A DNA stretch of 64,000 nt from an uncultured Planctomycetaceae bacterium (lineage in GTDB: Bacteria; Planctomycetota; Planctomycetia; Planctomycetales; Planctomycetaceae): the NCBI GenBank assembly GCA_963815195.1, contig CAWFGE010000018.1, forward strand, positions 32,001 through 96,000. The letters run 5' to 3'. The position numbers and the translations under genes are program-made. The notes under the pieces are model-generated. The model saw only the letters and a program-made list of their open reading frames with translations, searched no databases and was not told the origin of the DNA. Positions 48,761 through 56,943 of the stretch are shown here, piece after piece. Each line of letters opens with the position of its first letter. The first letter of the stretch is position 1.

Positions 48761-51700
48761 ATGCGATTTTCGTTGGCGATTTCTTTTGCAATGCTGCTCG
48801 GCGGTGCGGGGCCGGCGATTCCGGCCGACGATGCCGCGGGCGTTTTTTTTGAGAAGTCCGTGCGGCCGGTGTTGGTTCGGCGATGCTTGAAATGTCACGG
48901 GGAAAAAGCGTCGGGCGGTCTGCGGCTGGATTCGCGAGCCGGTCTCGTGAAGGGCGGCGAGTCGGGGCCGGCGATTGTTCCAAAGAACGCCGGCGAGAGT
49001 TTGCTGTTTCAAGCGGTGAAGCGCGAGGGCGGATACGAAATGCCGCCCGACGAAAAACTCTCCGCGGCCGAAGTCGGCGTGTTCGAGCGCTGGATTGAGC
49101 TCGGCGCGCCCTGGCCGGACGCGAAGATTCTCAAACCCGAACAACAGGCGGACAAAGCGAAAACCCACTGGGCGTTTCAGCCGGTCGGAAAACCTGCGGT
49201 CCCGAACGTCAACGAGGCCTGGGTGCGAACGCCGATCGATGCATTCGTTCTGAAGACGCTCAAGGAGCAGGGCCTAAAACCTTCGCCCGCAGCGGACCGG
49301 CGGACGTTGATCCGCCGGGCGACCTACACGCTGACCGGATTGCCGCCGACGCCTGAGGAAGTCGAGGCGTTTGTCCGCGATCCGGATCCGCTCGCTTACG
49401 AGAAGTTGGTGGATCGTCTGTTGGAATCGCCGCACTACGGGGAGCACGGGGCCAGGCAATGGCTGGACCTGGCCCGCTATTCGGACACCAAGGGCTACGT
49501 TTACGCCCGCGAGGAACGGTTTTGGGTCCATGCCTGGGCGTACCGCGATTGGGTCGTCAGGGCCCTCAATGAGGATCTGGCGTACGACCGGTTTTTGCTG
49601 TTGCAGCTCGCGGCCGATCAAGTCCAGGACAAAAAACCGGGCGACCTGGCGGCGATGGGGTTTTTGACCTTGGGCCGGCGGTTCTTGGGCGTGACGCACG
49701 ACATCATCGACGACCGCATCGACGTCGTTTGCCGGGGCACGATGGCGCTCACCGTCGGTTGTGCCCGCTGTCACGATCACAAATACGACCCGATCCCCAC
49801 GGGCGATTACTATTCGCTCTACGGGGTCTTTGACAGTTGTGCCGAGCGGATGGTCCCGTTGTCTCCAGGGCCGACGGGCGATGGAAACTATCAAAAGGAA
49901 CTCGCGGCCAGAAAGCAAAACCTCGCCGACAAACTCGCGGCCGCCCGCTTGGAATCGGCGAACCGCGTGCGCGAGCGGATTGCGGATTATCTCCACGCTC
50001 AAACGGAACTGGAGAAATATCCCTCGCAGGGCTTCGATCAGATTTTTGAAAAGTCGGACATCCTGCCCGCGTTCGTCAGACGCTGGGCGGCCCATCTGCG
50101 CGACGCCGACCGGCGGAAGAATCCCGTCTTCCGGCACTGGCACGCGTACAAGGCGATCCCGCGCGAAGAGTTCTCCGAACAGGCGGCAAAAATCACCCAG
50201 CAACTTGCCGAGCAGAAACCGGACAAAGTCAATCGTCTCGTCGCGGAGGCTTTTCAAGAACCGCCTGCCACGTTTGACGAGGTCATCGGCCGCTATGCGA
50301 AACTGTTTGCTCAAGTCGACGGCGAGTGGAAGAGCCTCCTCGCCAAAGCGAATGAGAACGGCGGCGACCCGCCCGCGTATTTGCCGGACGCCGACGCGGA
50401 AAGCCTGCGGCGGGTGTTGTACGGGCCGGGGGCTCCGTGCGAAGTGCCCGACGAGCCGATCGTGCATACGGAAATGGACTTCGACTCCGGGACCTGCACC
50501 GCGCTTTGGAAACTGCAAGGCGAAGTGGACCGCTGGATCATCCGTTCGAAATACGATGTGCCTTATGCATTGACCTTGGTGGATCGGCCCGCGCCCCGGG
50601 AACCGCGAATCTTCAAGCGAGGCGATCCCGCGAACAAAGGCGAAGAAGTGCCCCGGCATTTCCTGTCGCTGTTTTCCGCATCGAACCCCGAGCCGTTCCA
50701 GCGGGGCAGCGGGCGGCTCGAACTTGCGAAAGCGATCATCGATCCCGCCAATCCGCTGACCGCGCGGGTGATCGTCAACCGCGTGTGGGCCTGGCATTTC
50801 GGCGAAGGGCTGGTGACGACAACCAGCGACTTCGGACTGCGGGCCGATCCGCCTTCGCATCCGGAACTTTTGGATTGGCTCACGCGGGACTTCCTCGAAA
50901 ACGGCTGGAGCCTCAAGTCGCTGCACCGCAGGATTTTGCTCTCGGCCGCATATCGGCAGTCGTCGCGGGGGCCGGGCGACGCTGCTTTGAAAGCCAAGGC
51001 CAAGCGGCTCGACCCGGCCAACCGGCTGCTCTGGCGGATGAATTCGCACCGCTTGACGTTCGAGGAATTCCGCGATTCGCTGCTCGCGGTCACTGGCCAA
51101 CTGAACCCCGAAGTCGGCGGCAAGCCCGTCGACTTGTTGAAACCCCCGTTTTCCGATCGGCGGACGCTGTATGGCCTGGTGGATCGGCAATTTTTTCCCA
51201 GCACGTTTCGCGTCTTCGACGTGGCCAATCCCGATTTGCACATCGCCGAGCGCAGCGAAACCACCGTGCCGCAACAGTCGCTGTTCTTTTTGAACCATCC
51301 GCTCGTCCTGGCCCGTGCGCGGGAACTGGCGAAACGCATTTCACCGAGCGAACCGCAAGCGGACGTTCGGTCACTGTTCCAAAGCGTGCTCGAACGCGAA
51401 CCAACGGAACAGGAACTCGCGGAGGCCGTCGCGTTTCTCGAAATCACGGAGCCCGCTCCGCATGCCGCCGGCCCGCCGGTCGCGGCGAAGGATTGGCAGT
51501 ACGGGTTTGGTTTTTATGACGAGGAGAAGCAGCGGGTTGCGGGGTTCCAGAATTTGCCGCACTTCACAGGCTCGGCATGGCAAGGCGGGGCAAGTTGGCC
51601 GGATGCGAAACTGGGTTGGGTGCAGCTCACCGCGGCGGGCGGGCATCCGGGGAACGATCGCCAACATGCCGCGGTCCGGCGGTGGACCGCGCCGGGCGAC

Positions 51701-52072
51701 ATGACGATCCAAATCCGCTCCAAGCTCGTCCACGAACCGGAAGCGGGCGACGGCGTCCGGGCGTTCGTGGTGAGTTCGTCTTCGGGGTTGTTGAAGTCGC
51801 TGGCGATCCATCAATCGTCGATCGACTTGAACGTGGACTCCCTTAGGGTGAAAGCGGGCGAGACGATTGACTTCGTCGTCGATATCGGCAAGGTCCTAAA
51901 CAGCGACCAATACCTGTGGACCGCCGAGGTTCAGGAACTCGCAGCGGCCGGCTCGTTGAAGGCGTGGAATTCGAAAACCGACTTCCCGCAGCACCGGCCG
52001 CAAAAGCTTACGCCCTGGGAACAACTCGCCCAGGTCCTGTTGTGCTCGAACGAGTTTTTGTTCGTGGATTGA
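48761..52072 (+). CDS. Planctomycete cytochrome c / DUF1549 / DUF1553 (PSD1) protein
   Basis: CLKCH, HWAFQP, PIDAF, WLDLARYSD, CARCHDHKYDP, NPLTARVIVNRVW, PSHPELLDWL, LLCSNEFLFVD. Confidence 0.95.
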   Translation: MRFSLAISFAMLLGGAGPAIPADDAAGVFFEKSVRPVLVRRCLKCHGEKASGGLRLDSRAGLVKGGESGPAIVPKNAGESLLFQAVKREGGYEMPPDEKLSAAEVGVFERWIELGAPWPDAKILKPEQQADKAKTHWAFQPVGKPAVPNVNEAWVRTPIDAFVLKTLKEQGLKPSPAADRRTLIRRATYTLTGLPPTPEEVEAFVRDPDPLAYEKLVDRLLESPHYGEHGARQWLDLARYSDTKGYVYAREERFWVHAWAYRDWVVRALNEDLAYDRFLLLQLAADQVQDKKPGDLAAMGFLTLGRRFLGVTHDIIDDRIDVVCRGTMALTVGCARCHDHKYDPIPTGDYYSLYGVFDSCAERMVPLSPGPTGDGNYQKELAARKQNLADKLAAARLESANRVRERIADYLHAQTELEKYPSQGFDQIFEKSDILPAFVRRWAAHLRDADRRKNPVFRHWHAYKAIPREEFSEQAAKITQQLAEQKPDKVNRLVAEAFQEPPATFDEVIGRYAKLFAQVDGEWKSLLAKANENGGDPPAYLPDADAESLRRVLYGPGAPCEVPDEPIVHTEMDFDSGTCTALWKLQGEVDRWIIRSKYDVPYALTLVDRPAPREPRIFKRGDPANKGEEVPRHFLSLFSASNPEPFQRGSGRLELAKAIIDPANPLTARVIVNRVWAWHFGEGLVTTTSDFGLRADPPSHPELLDWLTRDFLENGWSLKSLHRRILLSAAYRQSSRGPGDAALKAKAKRLDPANRLLWRMNSHRLTFEEFRDSLLAVTGQLNPEVGGKPVDLLKPPFSDRRTLYGLVDRQFFPSTFRVFDVANPDLHIAERSETTVPQQSLFFLNHPLVLARARELAKRISPSEPQADVRSLFQSVLEREPTEQELAEAVAFLEITEPAPHAAGPPVAAKDWQYGFGFYDEEKQRVAGFQNLPHFTGSAWQGGASWPDAKLGWVQLTAAGGHPGNDRQHAAVRRWTAPGDMTIQIRSKLVHEPEAGDGVRAFVVSSSSGLLKSLAIHQSSIDLNVDSLRVKAGETIDFVVDIGKVLNSDQYLWTAEVQELAAAGSLKAWNSKTDFPQHRPQKLTPWEQLAQVLLCSNEFLFVD

Positions 52073-52507: not shown

Positions 52508-53040
52508 TGCATCATCTCCTAAGGGGCCGAGTGTCGCCAATCTGAACATCGAAACGAACAACCGAGTGCGGTCAAACCGCGACCAGCGACCGATGGTTCG
52601 CCGGTTTTTCTCCTATCGGCTCAAGCGGCCTTGCGGTTTGAGCGGAATCTGCCGATTGCAGCGATTTTGTGGAGTTACGCCCACTTATCACAGGATCATG
52701 GTTTACCGCATCATGATTTTGTGAACCATGATTTTGTTCAATTCGCCACACCGACGACTGGCGATGACACCTGGGAATTTCTTTAGAGAATTTTGGGGGA
52801 TTTGCCTAAATTCCGGGAACTCTATTTGCGGAACACGCATCTTAACTTTCACACACCTCGTCAACTACGCACACAACCCGCCGACATTTGCTCGAGGTGT
52901 GATCGCCTTCGCGATCGGCGGGAACTCTGATTCTCAACAACTCATACCTTGGTTGGGCCGCGTTTTTGCGGGGCATCAACGGGGATGAGCCAAGTTCGTC
53001 GCGGGCTAGATTGGCCGACTTCGGCCCTCAAGGAGAAGCG

Positions 53041-53442
53041 ATGAATTTGCACACGGTTCAATGGGACGAGGAAAGTGCGCTCTGGCGGACTCGCGTGATC
53101 CGCGATGTCGATCCCCGCGAGCCCCTCGTCAAACAAAATCGCCAGGGAGAGCCCTGGCTGGCGTGGAATACGCCGGGACGTGAAGACGGCCTGGTGGAGT
53201 TCGTGGAGCTGGAAAGCGTGGCGGCGTGGATTCCGCCCGAGGGAGAAATCCTCTTGTTCTACCGCCCGGCTTTGGAGTATTGGCAAACGGTGAATCTTCA
53301 AGCCGCCTGCCACGTCGAATGGCTCGAGCGTGAATGGCCGACCTTCGGCGAAGTGGCCCTCGAACAACTGAACACGATCGCCCAAGCCATCCAACAAGAA
53401 TCCCGCCCCGGCCGGTCGATGACGCTGGAGACCTGGGAGTAA
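53041..53442 (+). CDS. Hypothetical protein
   Basis: AAGGAG RBS before the ATG at 53041; 133-aa ORF. Confidence 0.65.
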   Translation: MNLHTVQWDEESALWRTRVIRDVDPREPLVKQNRQGEPWLAWNTPGREDGLVEFVELESVAAWIPPEGEILLFYRPALEYWQTVNLQAACHVEWLEREWPTFGEVALEQLNTIAQAIQQESRPGRSMTLETWE

Positions 53443-53582
53443 GGCGATCGCGTTTCCAACAAAAGATGTTGTCAAAATCAGCCGCAGGGCGCTAGGCTGG
53501 GCTGTTAAGAAATTGGTATTGAAGTCTAAAAACGCGGGTTCTGGCTTGCGCCACCTTTGTTCTCGTTTTTTTGGAAAGCATT

Positions 53583-53780
53583 AGGGCCGAAGGCCCGGCT
53601 CTCTGTCAGCCCAGGGCCAGCGCAGCGCCGCCCTGGGTTACGGATGTAATGAAACGCAAGCCCCAAGGGGGCGGCCCACGTGGCTCTCGCCACGGAACAA
53701 GGCATTGCGGATTTCCGAATTCGGGCCGCCCCGTTGGGGCTTCGGCATTTTGTTCGTTCCCGTTCCCAGGGCTGCGCCCT
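53583..53780. repeat. REP family D (AGGGCCGAAGGCCCGG..CCCAGGG..CCCTGGG), left part; continues at 55440-55470
   Basis: Arm agggccgaaggcccggctctctgtcagcccag is mirrored by ctgggctgacagagggccggaccttcggtcct after the IS110. Inner agccccaa..ggggcggccc / gggccgccccgttggggct stem. Confidence 0.85.
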
Positions 53781-53794
53781 TATAGGATTTGCTG

Positions 53795-54097
53795 AGGGAT
53801 GGATCGGCCGCGGGAGAGGGCGGGGGGACGCAAGTCTCTCCCCACGGACTCTTCCGCGCCGGAGCCGATCCAGCGCCGTTTTTTTCCTGTTTTTCCAGCC
53901 CCAACTTTGAGAGGATCAAAATCAGGCACGCGTCGCCCCGCTACGAATCGTGCGCCCCATCGCTTCAACGATTGAGCCCAGACTTTCGAGCGGGACGATG
54001 CTCTTGGGAACCAACGAATCACTCCAGATGATGACGCCAAAACGTCTCGGACTATAAGGTTTTCGCCCGCTCCCAAGATCGCGTGCCCTTTTTGATT
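53795..54097 (+). ncRNA. Predicted IS110 bridge RNA (5' hairpin + target-binding loop + donor-binding loop)
   Basis: Guides TGCGCCC (53951-57) and AGCCCAG (53975-81) match the target TGCGCC-CT-GGGCT. Guides CAGATG (54025-30) and CTATAAG (54052-58) match the donor CAGATGT-CT-TATAG. Each pair lies in an internal loop closed by stems. Confidence 0.85.
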
Positions 54098-54127
54098 GTG
54101 TTTCACTTTAACAGGAGACGATCCCCC

Positions 54128-55411
54128 ATGCACTCGAATTTGCTCGACCCCAATGCCTGTGTGCTGATCGGCCTCGATTGGGCCGACCGCGAACATGCCG
54201 TCTGCCGGCTGCTTCCCGACGGCGGAACCGAACACCGGCAACTCGAACACACGCCCGAAGCGATTGCCGACTGGCTCGCCGGCCTGCGGAAGCAATTCCC
54301 CGGTCGCCCGATTCGGATCGCGTTGGAGCAAAGCCGCGGCGCGCTGATGAACGCGCTCCGCCGTTTCGCCGACCTGGAACTCGAACTGTATCCCATCAAT
54401 CCCAAGCAGCTGGCCCGCTATCGGGACGCGATTCATCCTTCGGGAGCGAAATCCGATCCAGACGATGCGCAGCTCTTGGCCCGCTTTCTGCAAAACCATC
54501 AGGAGCAACTCCTCCCGTTCGTGGCGGACGATCCCGAAACCCGCCGCCTGGCCGAGTTGTCCGAACTTCGCCGCAAGCTGGTCGATGACCGCAAAACCCT
54601 TGTGCAGAAGCTCGAAGGCACGCTCAAGCTGTATTTTCCGCAACTGCTCGAATGGTGTGCCGGCAAGAGTCGCCAACCCCTGTTGCTCGCCGTGCTTCGC
54701 CGCTGGCCGAGCTTGGGCGATCTTAAGCGGGCTCATCCCAAAACGCTGCGCACGTTCCTCGCCGAGCATGGCCTGCGGAACCCCGACCAGCAAACCGAGT
54801 GGATCGACAACGTCCGCCCCGCCACCCCGTTGACCGAGGATGCCAGTTTGATCGAACCCCGCGCGATGTACGCCCAAAGTCTCGGCCGGCAAATCGAGGA
54901 ACTGAACGAGGCCATTGCCAAATTCGAGAAGCAACTGGACGAGGCGACCGCCGCGCATCCCGACCACGAACTGTTCCGCTCGCTGCCCGGTGCCGGCGAC
55001 GTCCTCACGCCGCGACTCATCGTGGCGATGGGCTCCGACCGGGACCGCTACCAAGACGCCGGGGACGTGCAATCCAAAAGCGGCATCGCCCCGATCACCA
55101 AGCAAAGCGGGAAGACCCGGCTCGTGTTGTCGCGAATCGCCTGCCCCAAATTTCTCCGGCAGACATTCCACGAGTTCGCCGACCAGGCCCGCCGCTGGAG
55201 CGATTGGTCCCGAGCGTTCTATCAAATGAAACGCGCGGCCGGCATGAGCCACCACGCCGCGGTCCGCGCCTTGGCCTTCAAATGGATTCGCATCATCTTT
55301 CGGATGTGGCAAACCGGCACCCCTTACTCGGAAATGAAGTACCAGGAACAACTCACAATCAGAAACAGCCCCGTCTGGAATTTATTGGAAACAACAACAG
55401 AAACCACCTGA
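54128..55411 (+). CDS. IS110 family transposase/recombinase (DEDD RuvC + Tnp20 domain)
   Basis: IGLDW, IALEQ, KSDPDDA, SLPGAG, GIAPITKQSGK (catalytic Ser motif), AVRALAFKWIRII. AGGAG RBS. Confidence 0.96.
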   Translation: MHSNLLDPNACVLIGLDWADREHAVCRLLPDGGTEHRQLEHTPEAIADWLAGLRKQFPGRPIRIALEQSRGALMNALRRFADLELELYPINPKQLARYRDAIHPSGAKSDPDDAQLLARFLQNHQEQLLPFVADDPETRRLAELSELRRKLVDDRKTLVQKLEGTLKLYFPQLLEWCAGKSRQPLLLAVLRRWPSLGDLKRAHPKTLRTFLAEHGLRNPDQQTEWIDNVRPATPLTEDASLIEPRAMYAQSLGRQIEELNEAIAKFEKQLDEATAAHPDHELFRSLPGAGDVLTPRLIVAMGSDRDRYQDAGDVQSKSGIAPITKQSGKTRLVLSRIACPKFLRQTFHEFADQARRWSDWSRAFYQMKRAAGMSHHAAVRALAFKWIRIIFRMWQTGTPYSEMKYQEQLTIRNSPVWNLLETTTETT

Positions 55412-55418
55412 AACCCAC

Positions 55419-55424
55419 TTGAAA
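55419..55424 (+). promoter_or_regulatory. Outward-facing -35 box (TTGAAA) of the IS110 circle-junction promoter
   Basis: In the circular form it lies exactly 17 bp from TAGGAT (53783-53788). Confidence 0.75.
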
Positions 55425-55658
55425 AAACCTCAGATGTCTGGGCTGACAGAGGGCCGGACCTTCGGTCCTTATTTCTCAAATTTGAAACAGTTGAATTTAC
55501 GAACGGTCGAAAAGCTCCGCAAAGACAAATCGTCGTCAACACCAAATTTTTAACGGCCCAGCGCTAGCCCCGGTTCATCGCGCAGGGCGCGTAGTCCCGG
55601 TTCATCGCTGCGCGAACCGGACGCTAGCACATACCGGCTGAGGGACCTTGGATGCCGA

Positions 55659-56770
<1,112 letters not shown>

Positions 56771-56943
56771 TGCGGTGTTCCTTGCGGTGGGAGTTGAATT
56801 GTTATTTGTGCCGGTGACCATGTCCCTCTCCTTGTGTGAAATGCTCCAAAAGAAACAAACGAATAGTATGTTCCTTTACGACTTAACACAAGTGGACATT
56901 CTGGACAAAATTCAAGTTTTTTTGAGAATTCCAAAAAAACCGC

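What the first reader, a model, noticed from the sequence alone, without database searches (positions are those of the whole stretch)
53795..54097. Complete two-loop bridge RNA readable in the IS110 left end, with all four guides matching target and donor
Seen in sequence: the reconstructed target is GCTGCGCC-CT-GGGCTG and the reconstructed circle junction (donor) is CTCAGATGT-CT-TATAGG. Loop 1 is closed by cgtc(gc)cccgct(a)cgaa 53931-47 / ttcgagcgggacg 53985-97, with inner hairpin atcg-cttcaa-cgat. It carries TGCGCCC (left target plus first core base) and AGCCCAG (reverse complement of CTGGGCT). Loop 2 is closed by tcttggga 54002-09 / tcccaaga 54071-78, with inner hairpin gacg-ccaaaa-cgtc. 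It carries CAGATG (left donor) and CTATAAG (reverse complement of CTTATAG). Both loops share the scaffold cgaatc...tttcg and are enclosed by ggcacgcg 53925-32 / cgcgtgcc 54080-87. Established: IS110 elements such as IS621 use a bispecific bridge RNA and a CT core for RNA-guided recombination. Inference: this is a planctomycete RNA-guided recombinase with its own RNA architecture and predictable, reprogrammable guides. I cannot tell whether this ortholog has been described.
Basis: partly seen in the sequence, partly recalled or inferred. Interest (0 to 1): 0.93.

Follow-up and report, generated by a model that had tools for sequence, protein, structure and literature searches.

The report
Planctomycete IS110 element with bridge RNA
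This is an RNA-guided jumping gene of the IS110 family whose own folded guide RNA spells out both its insertion site and its own ends; the evidence for it is strong, but it is a further example of a mechanism described in 2024, not a new one.

Summary
A 1.66-kb IS110-family element (CT cores at 53779-80 and 55438-39) carries a 427-aa DEDD/Ser recombinase gene. Its 347-nt left end holds a 163-nt RNA (53925-54087) with two internal-loop arms inside a closing stem. All four guides sit where the IS621 model puts them.

Three independent tests support function:
- The genome has five copies with identical RNA, all at TGCGCC-CT-GGGCT. Five of seven perfect sites are occupied, and none of 17 sites with one left-half mismatch.
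- A covariance model finds the RNA upstream of the recombinase gene in 84 of 88 sources (the window and 87 related loci), with 36 of 41 base pairs showing compensatory change.
- Across 47 distinct guide sets the target guides track the flanks (right guide 5/5 in 33), and 0 of 2000 permutations reach this.

Weak points:
- No RNA run was available.
- The left donor guide pairs only 6 nt.
- One sister-genome copy sits at a non-matching site.

The mechanism is known (Durrant 2024, Hiraizumi 2024), and this scan has already reported planctomycete bridge RNAs on other DNA. I file it as a new member of a known kind, of moderate interest.

The parts
53773..53780 (+). Left target half-site TGCGCC plus CT core (53779-80) at the left junction
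   Evidence: Identical in all 5 copies. Continuous with the right half in the empty paralogous site.
53781..55439 (+). IS110-group insertion sequence, 1659 bp counted with one CT core. Left non-coding end 347 nt, right non-coding end 28 nt.
   Evidence: Five near-identical copies with the same ends. The left end is much longer than the right end, as in the IS110 group (text).
53781..53788 (+). Left terminus: right-donor half-site TATAG and candidate -10 box (TATAGG 53781-86 or TAGGAT 53783-88) of a circle-junction promoter
   Evidence: Computed junction scan: window TTGAAA-N17-TAGGAT scores 9/12. 36 of 51 distinct orthologue junctions score >=8/12 with -35 in the right end and -10 at the left-end start.
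53800..53872 (+). Long 5' stem-loop in the left end, followed by a T-rich spacer (53878-53895)
   Evidence: MFE fold of 53795-54097. By position it is analogous to the 5' stem-loop of the IS621 RNA (text). Its function is not shown.
53925..54087 (+). [quoted passage not shown]
   Evidence: Folds. Model R1 scores 159.4 bits here. Helix 1 is 94.3% paired, and all 7 of its pairs show changes on both sides.
53932..53999 (+). Target-binding arm: basal helices, bulged A 53943, scaffold CGAA/TTCG, internal loop, inner hairpin 53959-72
   Evidence: helices 2-4 with compensatory changes.
53951..53957 (+). Left target guide TGCGCCC (same sense as the left target plus first core base)
   Evidence: Across 47 guide sets, mean 6.87 of 9 matches against 4.24 permuted; 0 of 2000 permutations reach it.
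53975..53981 (+). Right target guide AGCCCAG (reverse complement of CT+GGGCT)
   Evidence: 33 of 47 guide sets match 5/5 non-core bases. Mean 4.32 against 1.58 permuted; 0 of 2000.
53982..53983 (+). Handshake guide of the target loop, AC, complementary to donor positions 6-7 (GT, 55436-37) and not to the target's own CC
   Evidence: Rule taken from Hiraizumi 2024. The first base is complementary to donor position 7 in 44 of 47 guide sets, and to its own target in 2 of 47.
54002..54078 (+). Donor-binding arm: basal stem, scaffold CGAA/TTCG, internal loop, inner hairpin 54033-46
   Evidence: helices 5-7.
54025..54030 (+). Left donor guide CAGATG (same sense as right-end bases 55431-36). The next two RNA bases (AU) do not match donor T-C.
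   Evidence: In orthologues 8-9 of 9 positions match in 26 of 47 sets.
54052..54058 (+). Right donor guide CTATAAG (reverse complement of CT+TATAG at the left end)
   Evidence: It changes together with the left terminus in orthologues: CTGTAAG with TACAG in L011, CCATAAG with TATGG in L016.
54059..54060 (+). Handshake guide of the donor loop, GU. The G is complementary to target position 7 (C 53778).
   Evidence: The first base is complementary to target position 7 in 44 of 47 guide sets (permuted mean 23.1, maximum 32).
54128..55411 (+). IS110-family recombinase gene, 427 aa, preceded by AGGAG at 54113-17
   Evidence: Pfam PF01548 3.7e-25 and PF02371 8.8e-14. NF033542 171.9 bits. D17, E67, D110, D113 and S327 are invariant in 7 orthologues and align to the catalytic motifs of ISCro4.
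55419..55424 (+). TTGAAA, candidate -35 box in the right end that would face the left-end -10 only in the excised circle
   Evidence: A TTGAC/TTGCA-type box sits at the same place in the orthologues.
55431..55439 (+). Right terminus: left-donor half-site CAGATGT plus CT core (55438-39)
   Evidence: Identical in all 5 copies.
55440..55444 (+). Right target half-site GGCCT-equivalent bases GGGCT, in the terminal repeat of a REP/MITE-like module (hairpin GGACCTTCGGTCC 55456-68)

Best explanation
The stretch 53925-54087 most likely encodes the bridge RNA of an IS110-group insertion sequence (53781-55439).

Proposed working, modelled on IS621:
1. The element leaves the chromosome as a circle. This joins its right end (-35 box TTGAAA) to its left end (-10 at the first bases). 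The joined promoter transcribes the left end, and probably the recombinase gene after it.
2. The RNA folds into a three-way junction with two arms.
3. [quoted passage not shown]
4. In the donor arm, CAGATG and CTATAAG do the same on the circle junction.
5. The 427-aa DEDD/Ser recombinase, held by the RNA, exchanges strands at the shared CT.
6. The two bases after each 3' guide (AC, GU) are complementary to the other DNA partner. They stabilise the exchanged strands, as handshake guides do.

Shown here: the anatomy, the guide matches, structural and guide covariation, and site specificity in this genome.

Inferred: transcription, RNA-protein binding and catalysis.
For: Anatomy and guide matches are read directly. 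The fold is supported.

Recombinase:
- Family membership.
- Catalytic D17/E67/D110/D113/S327 are invariant. They align with the DEDD and Ser motifs of ISCro4.

Own genome:
- 5 copies, with 5 identical RNA genes.
- All left and right junctions are identical.
- 5 of 7 perfect 13-bp sites are occupied.
- 0 of 17 sites with one mismatch in the left half are occupied.
- 0 of 101 sites with a perfect left half and a mismatched right half are occupied.

Orthologues:
- Model R1 hits 84 of 88 sources. All but one weak hit lie on the recombinase strand, just upstream of the gene.
- 94.9% of cells are paired, and 36 of 41 pairs show changes on both sides, against about 20 when the partner column is slid.
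- Right target guide: 5/5 non-core bases in 33 of 47 guide sets and 4/5 in 7.
- Left target guide: mean 6.87 of 9.
- For both, 0 of 2000 permutations reach the observed value.
- Near-identical elements differ by single paired changes. Examples are CCCGAAG/CTTCGGG against CCCAAAG/CTTTGGG, and GGAATGG/CCATTCC against GGCATGG/CCATGCC.
- The core varies (CT 39, CC 6, GT 2) with matching guides.
- The handshake rule is met in 44 of 47 sets on each loop.
- A junction-spanning promoter scores >=8/12 in 36 of 51 distinct junctions.

The published model is cited from passages of Durrant 2024 and Hiraizumi 2024.
Against: - A 95%-identical copy in a sister genome (G070) has the same guides. It sits at GGCGCAAGC-CT-TATGGTC, which matches neither target guide.
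- In the window the left donor guide pairs only 6 nt. It mismatches donor position 7 and both core bases.
- The left target guide leaves the core T unpaired, here and in 29 of 47 guide sets.
- No sigma-70-like promoter was found in the integrated context.
- The window's junction promoter is only 9/12, with its -10 shifted by 2 nt relative to most orthologues.
- Three of the five copies have a damaged recombinase gene.
- Orthologue boundaries were located from the donor guides, so the donor-side matches there are circular.
- Alignment A3 is fitted to the model.
- The guide sets are related to each other, so the permutation figures overstate independence.
- 14 of 47 guide sets do not match the right flank perfectly, and 3 score 0/5.
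Confidence: 0.93

Rival explanations
1. The structured left end is only a cis-acting leader of the recombinase mRNA. It would act as a read-through terminator or translational control element, and the four matches to the flanks and ends would be incidental.
For: - The region lies directly upstream of the gene, and a T-run (54089-93) follows the closing stem.
- A long hairpin with a T-rich tail lies at 53800-53895.
- No promoter was found in the linear context.
Against: - A leader would have no reason to carry loop bases that change with the insertion site while the stems stay fixed. 33 of 47 guide sets match the right flank 5/5, and 0 of 2000 permutations reach this.
- The T-run after the closing stem is not conserved in L010, L011 or L012.
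- Only genomic sites matching both loop strings are occupied.
Confidence: 0.03
2. The matches exist because the left end carries a captured, decayed copy of the target repeat. They would be a relic of recombination with the REP-like module, not a functional guide.
For: The element always sits in one repeat family that occurs many times in the genome (CTGGGCTGACA at 57 places). The target itself is partly palindromic (CCCAGGGC-TGC-GCCCTGGG).
Against: - The two target strings are in opposite senses. They are split by a conserved hairpin and sit at fixed scaffold positions.
- Orthologues that target unrelated sequences keep the same scaffold with other strings.
- The donor loop has the same layout for the element's own ends.
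- The handshake bases follow the non-cognate rule in 44 of 47 sets, which a relic would not do.
Confidence: 0.01
3. It is a genuine bridge RNA gene, but the element is no longer mobile in this genome. Its weak left donor guide and weak junction promoter would have frozen it.
For: - The left donor guide pairs only 6 nt, with two mismatches next to the core.
- The junction promoter scores 9/12.
- Three of five copies carry frameshifts or a ~300-bp deletion.
- Two perfect sites remain empty.
Against: - The five copies differ at only 10 alignment columns outside the deletion, which points to recent spread.
- Two copies keep an intact 427-aa frame.
- The same CCAGATGA/CCAGATGC loop string, with its extra C, occurs in related elements (L010, L030, L043).
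Confidence: 0.15

Closest known systems
IS621 of Escherichia coli and its bridge RNA (IS110 group). Durrant et al. 2024, PMC11208160, passages read. Hiraizumi et al. 2024, PMC11208158, passages read. Structures 8wt6-9.
   Same: - DEDD plus Ser recombinase.
- RNA encoded in a long left end.
[quoted passage not shown]
- The 5' guide of each loop has the sense of the top strand, and the 3' guide is antisense.
- CT core included in the pairing.
- Two handshake bases after each 3' guide, complementary to the other partner.
- A promoter split across the circle junction.
- A REP-like target.
   Different: - The protein is only distantly similar: phmmer E 2e-7 over residues 251-404.
- It is about 100 aa longer (427 against a 328-residue chain), with roughly 80 extra residues between the two aligned blocks.
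- A conserved 7-bp closing stem encloses both arms. The IS621 description (target loop nt 34-98, linker, donor loop nt 110-177) does not include one.
- The right target guide is 7 nt (29 of 47 sets) against 4 nt.
- The left target guide usually stops at the first core base, whereas IS621 has 9 nt including both.
- 146 nt of leader lie before the RNA core.
ISCro4 bridge recombinase (structure 9t56). This is the bridge-recombinase system reported for human genome rearrangement (abstract listing seen, which names IS622). That it corresponds to ISCro4 is my recollection.
   Same: It is the best solved relative by sequence (E 2.1e-9). The alignment covers both the DEDD block and the Ser block.
   Different: It is as remote as IS621. 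I did not compare its RNA here.
ISPpu10 of Pseudomonas putida (Na et al. 2026 preprint, 10.64898/2026.03.19.712850; abstract read)
   Same: An IS110 element whose insertions all map to copies of one conserved intergenic repeat with a GC-rich stem-loop. Here the core lies in the 3' arm of the palindrome CCCAGGGC-TGC-GCCCTGGG, inside a repeat module.
   Different: I did not test whether the palindrome adds specificity here. One perfect 13-bp site outside the repeat (contig C13) is empty. That is compatible with such a second layer, but it is a single case.
IS1111-group elements with seekRNA / bridge RNA in the right end (named in Durrant 2024; Siddiquee et al. 2024 is recalled and was not read here)
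   Same: The same recombinase family and the same principle of RNA-guided target and donor reading.
   Different: Those elements carry the RNA downstream of the gene, in a long right end with long subterminal inverted repeats. Here the right end is 28 nt and the RNA lies upstream.

Membership tests
IS110 family recombinase | N-terminal RuvC-like DEDD domain | tested here: met
   PF01548, E 3.7e-25, residues 14-171. D17, E67, D110 and D113 are invariant in 7 orthologues and aligned with the ISCro4 motifs.
IS110 family recombinase | C-terminal Tnp domain with conserved catalytic serine | tested here: met
   PF02371, E 8.8e-14, residues 281-366. S327 is invariant and aligned to the SG motif of ISCro4.
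IS110 family recombinase | Curated whole-protein model score | tested here: met
   NF033542 'IS110 family RNA-guided transposase': 171.9 bits against a cutoff of 140.
IS110 group (as opposed to IS1111 group) | Left non-coding end much longer than the right; RNA in the left end | tested here: met
   Left end 347 nt (53781-54127). Right end 28 nt (55412-55439). RNA at 53925-54087. Criterion taken.
IS110 group | Insertion at a short shared core, with no terminal inverted repeats and no target duplication beyond the core | tested here: met
   CT is present at both junctions and once in the empty paralogous site. Only CT is shared between the two junctions.
Bridge RNA | Two stem-loops with internal loops, structurally conserved | tested here: met
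   7 helices, 94.9% of cells paired, 36 of 41 pairs with changes on both sides, on 64 distinct sequences. Caveat: the alignment is fitted to the model.
Bridge RNA | [quoted passage not shown] | tested here: met
   Window: 7 nt each. 47 guide sets: 0 of 2000 permutations reach the observed match for either guide. Own-genome occupancy follows both halves.
Bridge RNA | [quoted passage not shown] | tested here: met
   Window ends were fixed independently from 5 copies and an empty site. CTATAAG matches 7 nt and CAGATG matches 6 nt. In orthologues this test is circular, except where termini changed together with the guide (L011, L016, L017).
Bridge RNA | Handshake guides complementary to position 7 of the non-cognate DNA and not to the cognate DNA | tested here: met
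   Window: AC against donor GT, and G against target C. 44 of 47 sets on both loops. Cognate complementarity occurs in only 2 and 3 of 47. Rule.
Bridge RNA | Promoter reconstituted at the circle junction | tested here: inconclusive
   Consensus match only. Window 9/12; 36 of 51 distinct junctions >=8/12 with the boxes on either side of the core. No transcript data.
Bridge RNA | RNA is expressed, binds the recombinase and directs recombination | not testable with these tools
   This needs RNA-seq and recombination assays.
Rfam families | Match to a curated RNA model | tested here: not met
   In 53000-56000 the only match up to E=1 is RAGATH-31, at 24.1 bits against a gathering score of 71.8. 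It did not recur in 16 orthologous loci. No curated bridge-RNA family matched.

The most novel reading that the evidence does not exclude
This clade has 427-aa recombinases and is spread over Planctomycetota, Acidobacteriota, Verrucomicrobiota and Gemmatimonadota records. Its RNA may form a structurally distinct class of bridge RNA.

Features of the proposed class:
- A closed three-way junction that ties the target and donor loops together.
- A 7-nt right target guide.
- A left target guide that usually leaves the second core base unpaired.
- Handshake bases already set for the post-exchange state.
- Natural use of CT, CC and GT cores.

If the closing stem fixes the geometry of the two loops, the complex could differ from IS621 in stoichiometry, fidelity or insertion/excision balance.
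Probability: 0.2. Interest if true: 0.55.

Novelty: new member of a known kind. Interest (0 to 1): 0.35.

Why it matters
This is a clean natural case in which the target, the donor, all four guides and both handshake dinucleotides of a bridge recombinase can be read straight from the sequence. Occupied and empty sites in the same genome then check that reading.

The related loci give a ready set of 47 naturally reprogrammed guide sets on one scaffold, including non-CT cores. That set is useful for choosing new orthologues and for learning guide-length and handshake rules outside the IS621/ISCro4 branch.

It does not change the understanding of the mechanism.

Tried and rejected
- **RNA evidence.** The look-up of sequencing runs (kind rna) on 53700-55500 listed no RNA holder.
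- **Rfam.** There was only a sub-threshold RAGATH-31 match at 53815-53852. I asked whether the left-end 5' hairpin belongs to that family, but the match did not recur in 16 orthologous loci, so I dropped it.
- **Linear promoter scan.** It found no sigma-70-like site in 53500-55700. The terminator scan picked up only small hairpins, among them the REP hairpin at 55456-68.
- The first Pfam call failed because my coordinates were one base off. I corrected them.
- A script assertion failed on a stem search offset and was fixed.
- **G070 flanks.** I searched them against the window's genome to see whether that site is syntenic or repeat-borne. There was no hit at E <= 1e-3.
- **Earlier scan notes.** A look-up by place gave nothing for this window.
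- **Literature.**
  - 'bridge RNA' + 'Planctomycetota' gave 0 papers.
  - 'IS110' + 'Planctomycet' gave 12 papers, of which 10 were listed. None of those is about bridge RNAs, judged by title and abstract start.
  - The supplements of Durrant 2024, which list predicted orthologues, were not opened. They could contain this clade.
- **Not attempted.**
  - Structure prediction of the recombinase.
  - A direct RNA-level comparison with the IS621 left end. I held no IS621 sequence from a tool.

Full report
**What is there.** The window holds a 1659-bp element (53781-55439, counted with one core) bounded by CT at 53779-80 and 55438-39. It has three parts:
- a 347-nt non-coding left end;
- one gene (ATG 54128, stop at 55409-11, 427 aa, preceded by AGGAG);
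- a 28-nt right end.

The protein matches Pfam DEDD_Tnp_IS110 (3.7e-25) and Transposase_20 (8.8e-14). It also matches NCBIfam NF033542, 'IS110 family RNA-guided transposase', at 171.9 bits against a cutoff of 140. Its nearest solved relatives are the ISCro4 (E 2.1e-9) and IS621 (E 2e-7) recombinases, which are remote. The DEDD and SG motifs align. D17, E67, D110, D113 and S327 are invariant among seven orthologues.

**Checking the observation.**
- The fold of 53900-54100 returns the closing stem and the two arms: -68.5 kcal/mol, z -3.38, 0 of 200 shuffles as stable.
- The fold of the full 53795-54097 adds a long 5' hairpin at 53800-53872.
- The element ends were fixed independently of the RNA. 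The genome holds five copies with identical left junctions (TGCGCC-CT-TATAGG) and right junctions (CAGATGT-CT-GGGCT).
- A paralogous copy of the same repeat module on contig C12 carries the uninterrupted CCCAGGGCTGCGCCCTGGGCTGACA.
- The reconstructed target and circle junction are therefore correct.

The guides read as follows:
- TGCGCCC (53951-57) is the left target plus the first core base.
- AGCCCAG (53975-81) is the reverse complement of CT+GGGCT.
- CAGATG (54025-30) is the left donor.
- CTATAAG (54052-58) is the reverse complement of CT+TATAG.

In IS621, the two bases after each 3' guide are 'handshake guides'. They pair with positions 6-7 of the other DNA partner after strand exchange and must not pair with their own partner (Hiraizumi 2024, passages read).
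- Here the target loop has AC after AGCCCAG. AC is complementary to the donor's GT (55436-37), not to the target's CC.
- The donor loop has GU after CTATAAG. Its G is complementary to target position 7 (C 53778).
- The 3' guide plus handshake therefore reads the integrated junctions: GTCTGGGCT on the right and CCTTATAG on the left.

**Test 1, specificity inside this genome.**
- The RNA gene is identical in all five copies.
- Among 1318 genomic places with CT+GGGCT, 5 are occupied, and all 5 have a perfect left half.
- Two further perfect sites are empty.
- None of 17 sites with one left-half mismatch is occupied, and none of the 1294 sites with more mismatches.
- Conversely, of 108 places with TGCGCC+CT, the 5 occupied ones all have the perfect right half. 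None of 101 with a mismatched right half is occupied.
- Both halves are therefore needed, as a bispecific target loop predicts.

**Test 2, conservation of the fold.**
- The recombinase has relatives in 10 of 200 other genomes of the same family and in 78 loci of named public records. These come from Planctomycetota, Acidobacteriota, Verrucomicrobiota, Gemmatimonadota and others, at 37-57% identity.
- I built a covariance model from seven planctomycete sequences with the window's structure.
- It found the RNA in 84 of 88 sources (86 hits). All but one weak hit are on the recombinase strand, directly upstream of the gene.
- On the resulting alignment, 94.9% of cells pair. 36 of 41 pairs show changes on both sides, against 19-23 when partners are slid. 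This includes all 7 pairs of the closing stem.
- The alignment is fitted to the model, which favours the structure. An independent RNAalifold run on the MAFFT seed already gave 13 of 25 pairs with compensatory change.

**Test 3, guide covariation.**
- For each hit I located the ends from the donor guides only, then compared the target guides with the flanks.
- Of 86 rows, 3 were dropped for short segments. 67 rows had all four half-sites, and they comprise 47 distinct guide sets.
- The right target guide matches 5/5 non-core bases in 33 sets, 4/5 in 7, and fewer in 7. The mean is 4.32 against 1.58 permuted.
- The left target guide matches 6.87 of 9 on average, against 4.24 permuted.
- For both guides, 0 of 2000 permutations reach the observed value.
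- The representative of the window's own guide set in this count was the outlier copy from G070, so the figures are conservative.
- Near-identical elements differ by single paired changes.
- The core itself varies (CT 39, CC 6, GT 2), with matching guides.
- The handshake rule holds in 44 of 47 sets on each loop. Cognate complementarity occurs in only 2 and 3 sets.
- The guide sets are related to one another, so the permutation counts are not probabilities.

**Expression model.**
- No sigma-70-like promoter is seen in the integrated state.
- If right and left ends are joined as in the circle, a promoter-like pair appears. Its -35 lies in the right end and its -10 at the first bases of the left end.
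- It scores >=8/12 in 36 of 51 distinct junctions. The commonest form is TTGAC[AG]-N17-TATAGT.
- In the window it is TTGAAA-N17-TAGGAT, 9/12.
- This is the arrangement reported for IS621.
- It is a consensus match only. No RNA run was listed.

**Differences from IS621.**
- A conserved closing stem makes a three-way junction. IS621 is described as a 5' stem-loop, a target loop (nt 34-98), a linker and a donor loop (nt 110-177).
- The right target guide is 7 nt in 29 of 47 sets, against 4 nt in IS621. Durrant already noted longer guides in some orthologues.
- The left target guide usually stops at the first core base; the second is matched in 18 of 47 sets.
- The protein is about 100 aa longer.
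- These are variations within the family.

**Results against the reading.**
- The single full copy in a sister genome (G070) is 95% identical in DNA and has the same guides. It sits at GGCGCAAGC-CT-TATGGTC. That site fits neither target guide.
- The right half of that site can pair with the right donor guide with one G-U. This would fit the 'half-match' off-target insertions described for IS621 (Xie et al. 2026 preprint; abstract read). This explanation is an inference.
- In the window the left donor guide pairs only 6 nt, with two mismatches next to the core.
- Three of the five copies have a frameshift or a ~300-bp deletion in the gene. The single-base indels could also be assembly errors.

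**Novelty.**
- The mechanism was published in 2024.
- Two text searches found no paper on planctomycete bridge RNAs.
- Durrant 2024 predicted thousands of orthologues, and I did not open their supplements.
- This scan has already reported planctomycete IS110 bridge RNAs in other genomes.
- Verdict: a real, well-supported new member of a known kind.

Noticed in passing
window 55659-56821 (- strand): recA, 220 bp to the right of the element, is spread over three reading frames. The RecA profile matches at positions 3-100, 94-148 and 157-262 in three overlapping ORFs. That means two frameshifts: either a recA pseudogene or assembly indels.
   Followed up: partly
window 53584-53612 and 55438-55470; 57 places in the genome: The element sits in the right terminus of a REP/MITE-like module. 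The module is about 180-230 bp long, with inverted termini (CTGGGCTGACA..GGCCGGACCTTCGG hairpins). Pairs of inverted termini recur on many contigs. The left terminus in the window differs in the left half-site and is unoccupied.
   Followed up: partly
L011 1381-1426(-) and 3176-3223(+); L085 616-664(-); L048 620-652(-): Rfam Acido-Lenti-1 RNA (RF01687) matches flank the orthologous elements: 46.3 and 40.6 bits against a gathering score of 37, plus two lower matches. In L011 they lie in inverted orientation on both sides. This 'sRNA' family may be a REP-like repeat that serves as a landing pad for these elements.
   Followed up: no
L009/L106 (G070 contig C25): A sister-genome copy with identical guides lies at a non-cognate site. 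The right half of that site (CT-TATGG) can pair with the right donor guide. It is a possible natural half-match insertion.
   Followed up: partly
L007 (G000 C15:246467-246544) and L107 (G070 C30:325932-326073): Solitary fragments of the element's 3' end, with a right-end-like terminus (..CCTCAGATGT-CT/CC) and unrelated flanks. They look like remnants of older or related copies.
   Followed up: no
L065 994-1151 and 2725-2882: Two copies of the RNA gene lie 1.7 kb apart in one Bryobacterales locus, with the same left flank string. This indicates tandem insertions into repeated target units.
   Followed up: no
window 54088-54094: A T-run (CTTTTTG) directly follows the GC-rich closing stem and could end the RNA before the recombinase gene. 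It is present in the G070 copy but not in L010, L011 or L012.
   Followed up: partly
window 48761-52072 (+): A 1103-aa protein with PSCyt1, PSCyt2 and PSD1 domains (planctomycete cytochrome C family). This supports the planctomycete origin of the window.
   Followed up: yes
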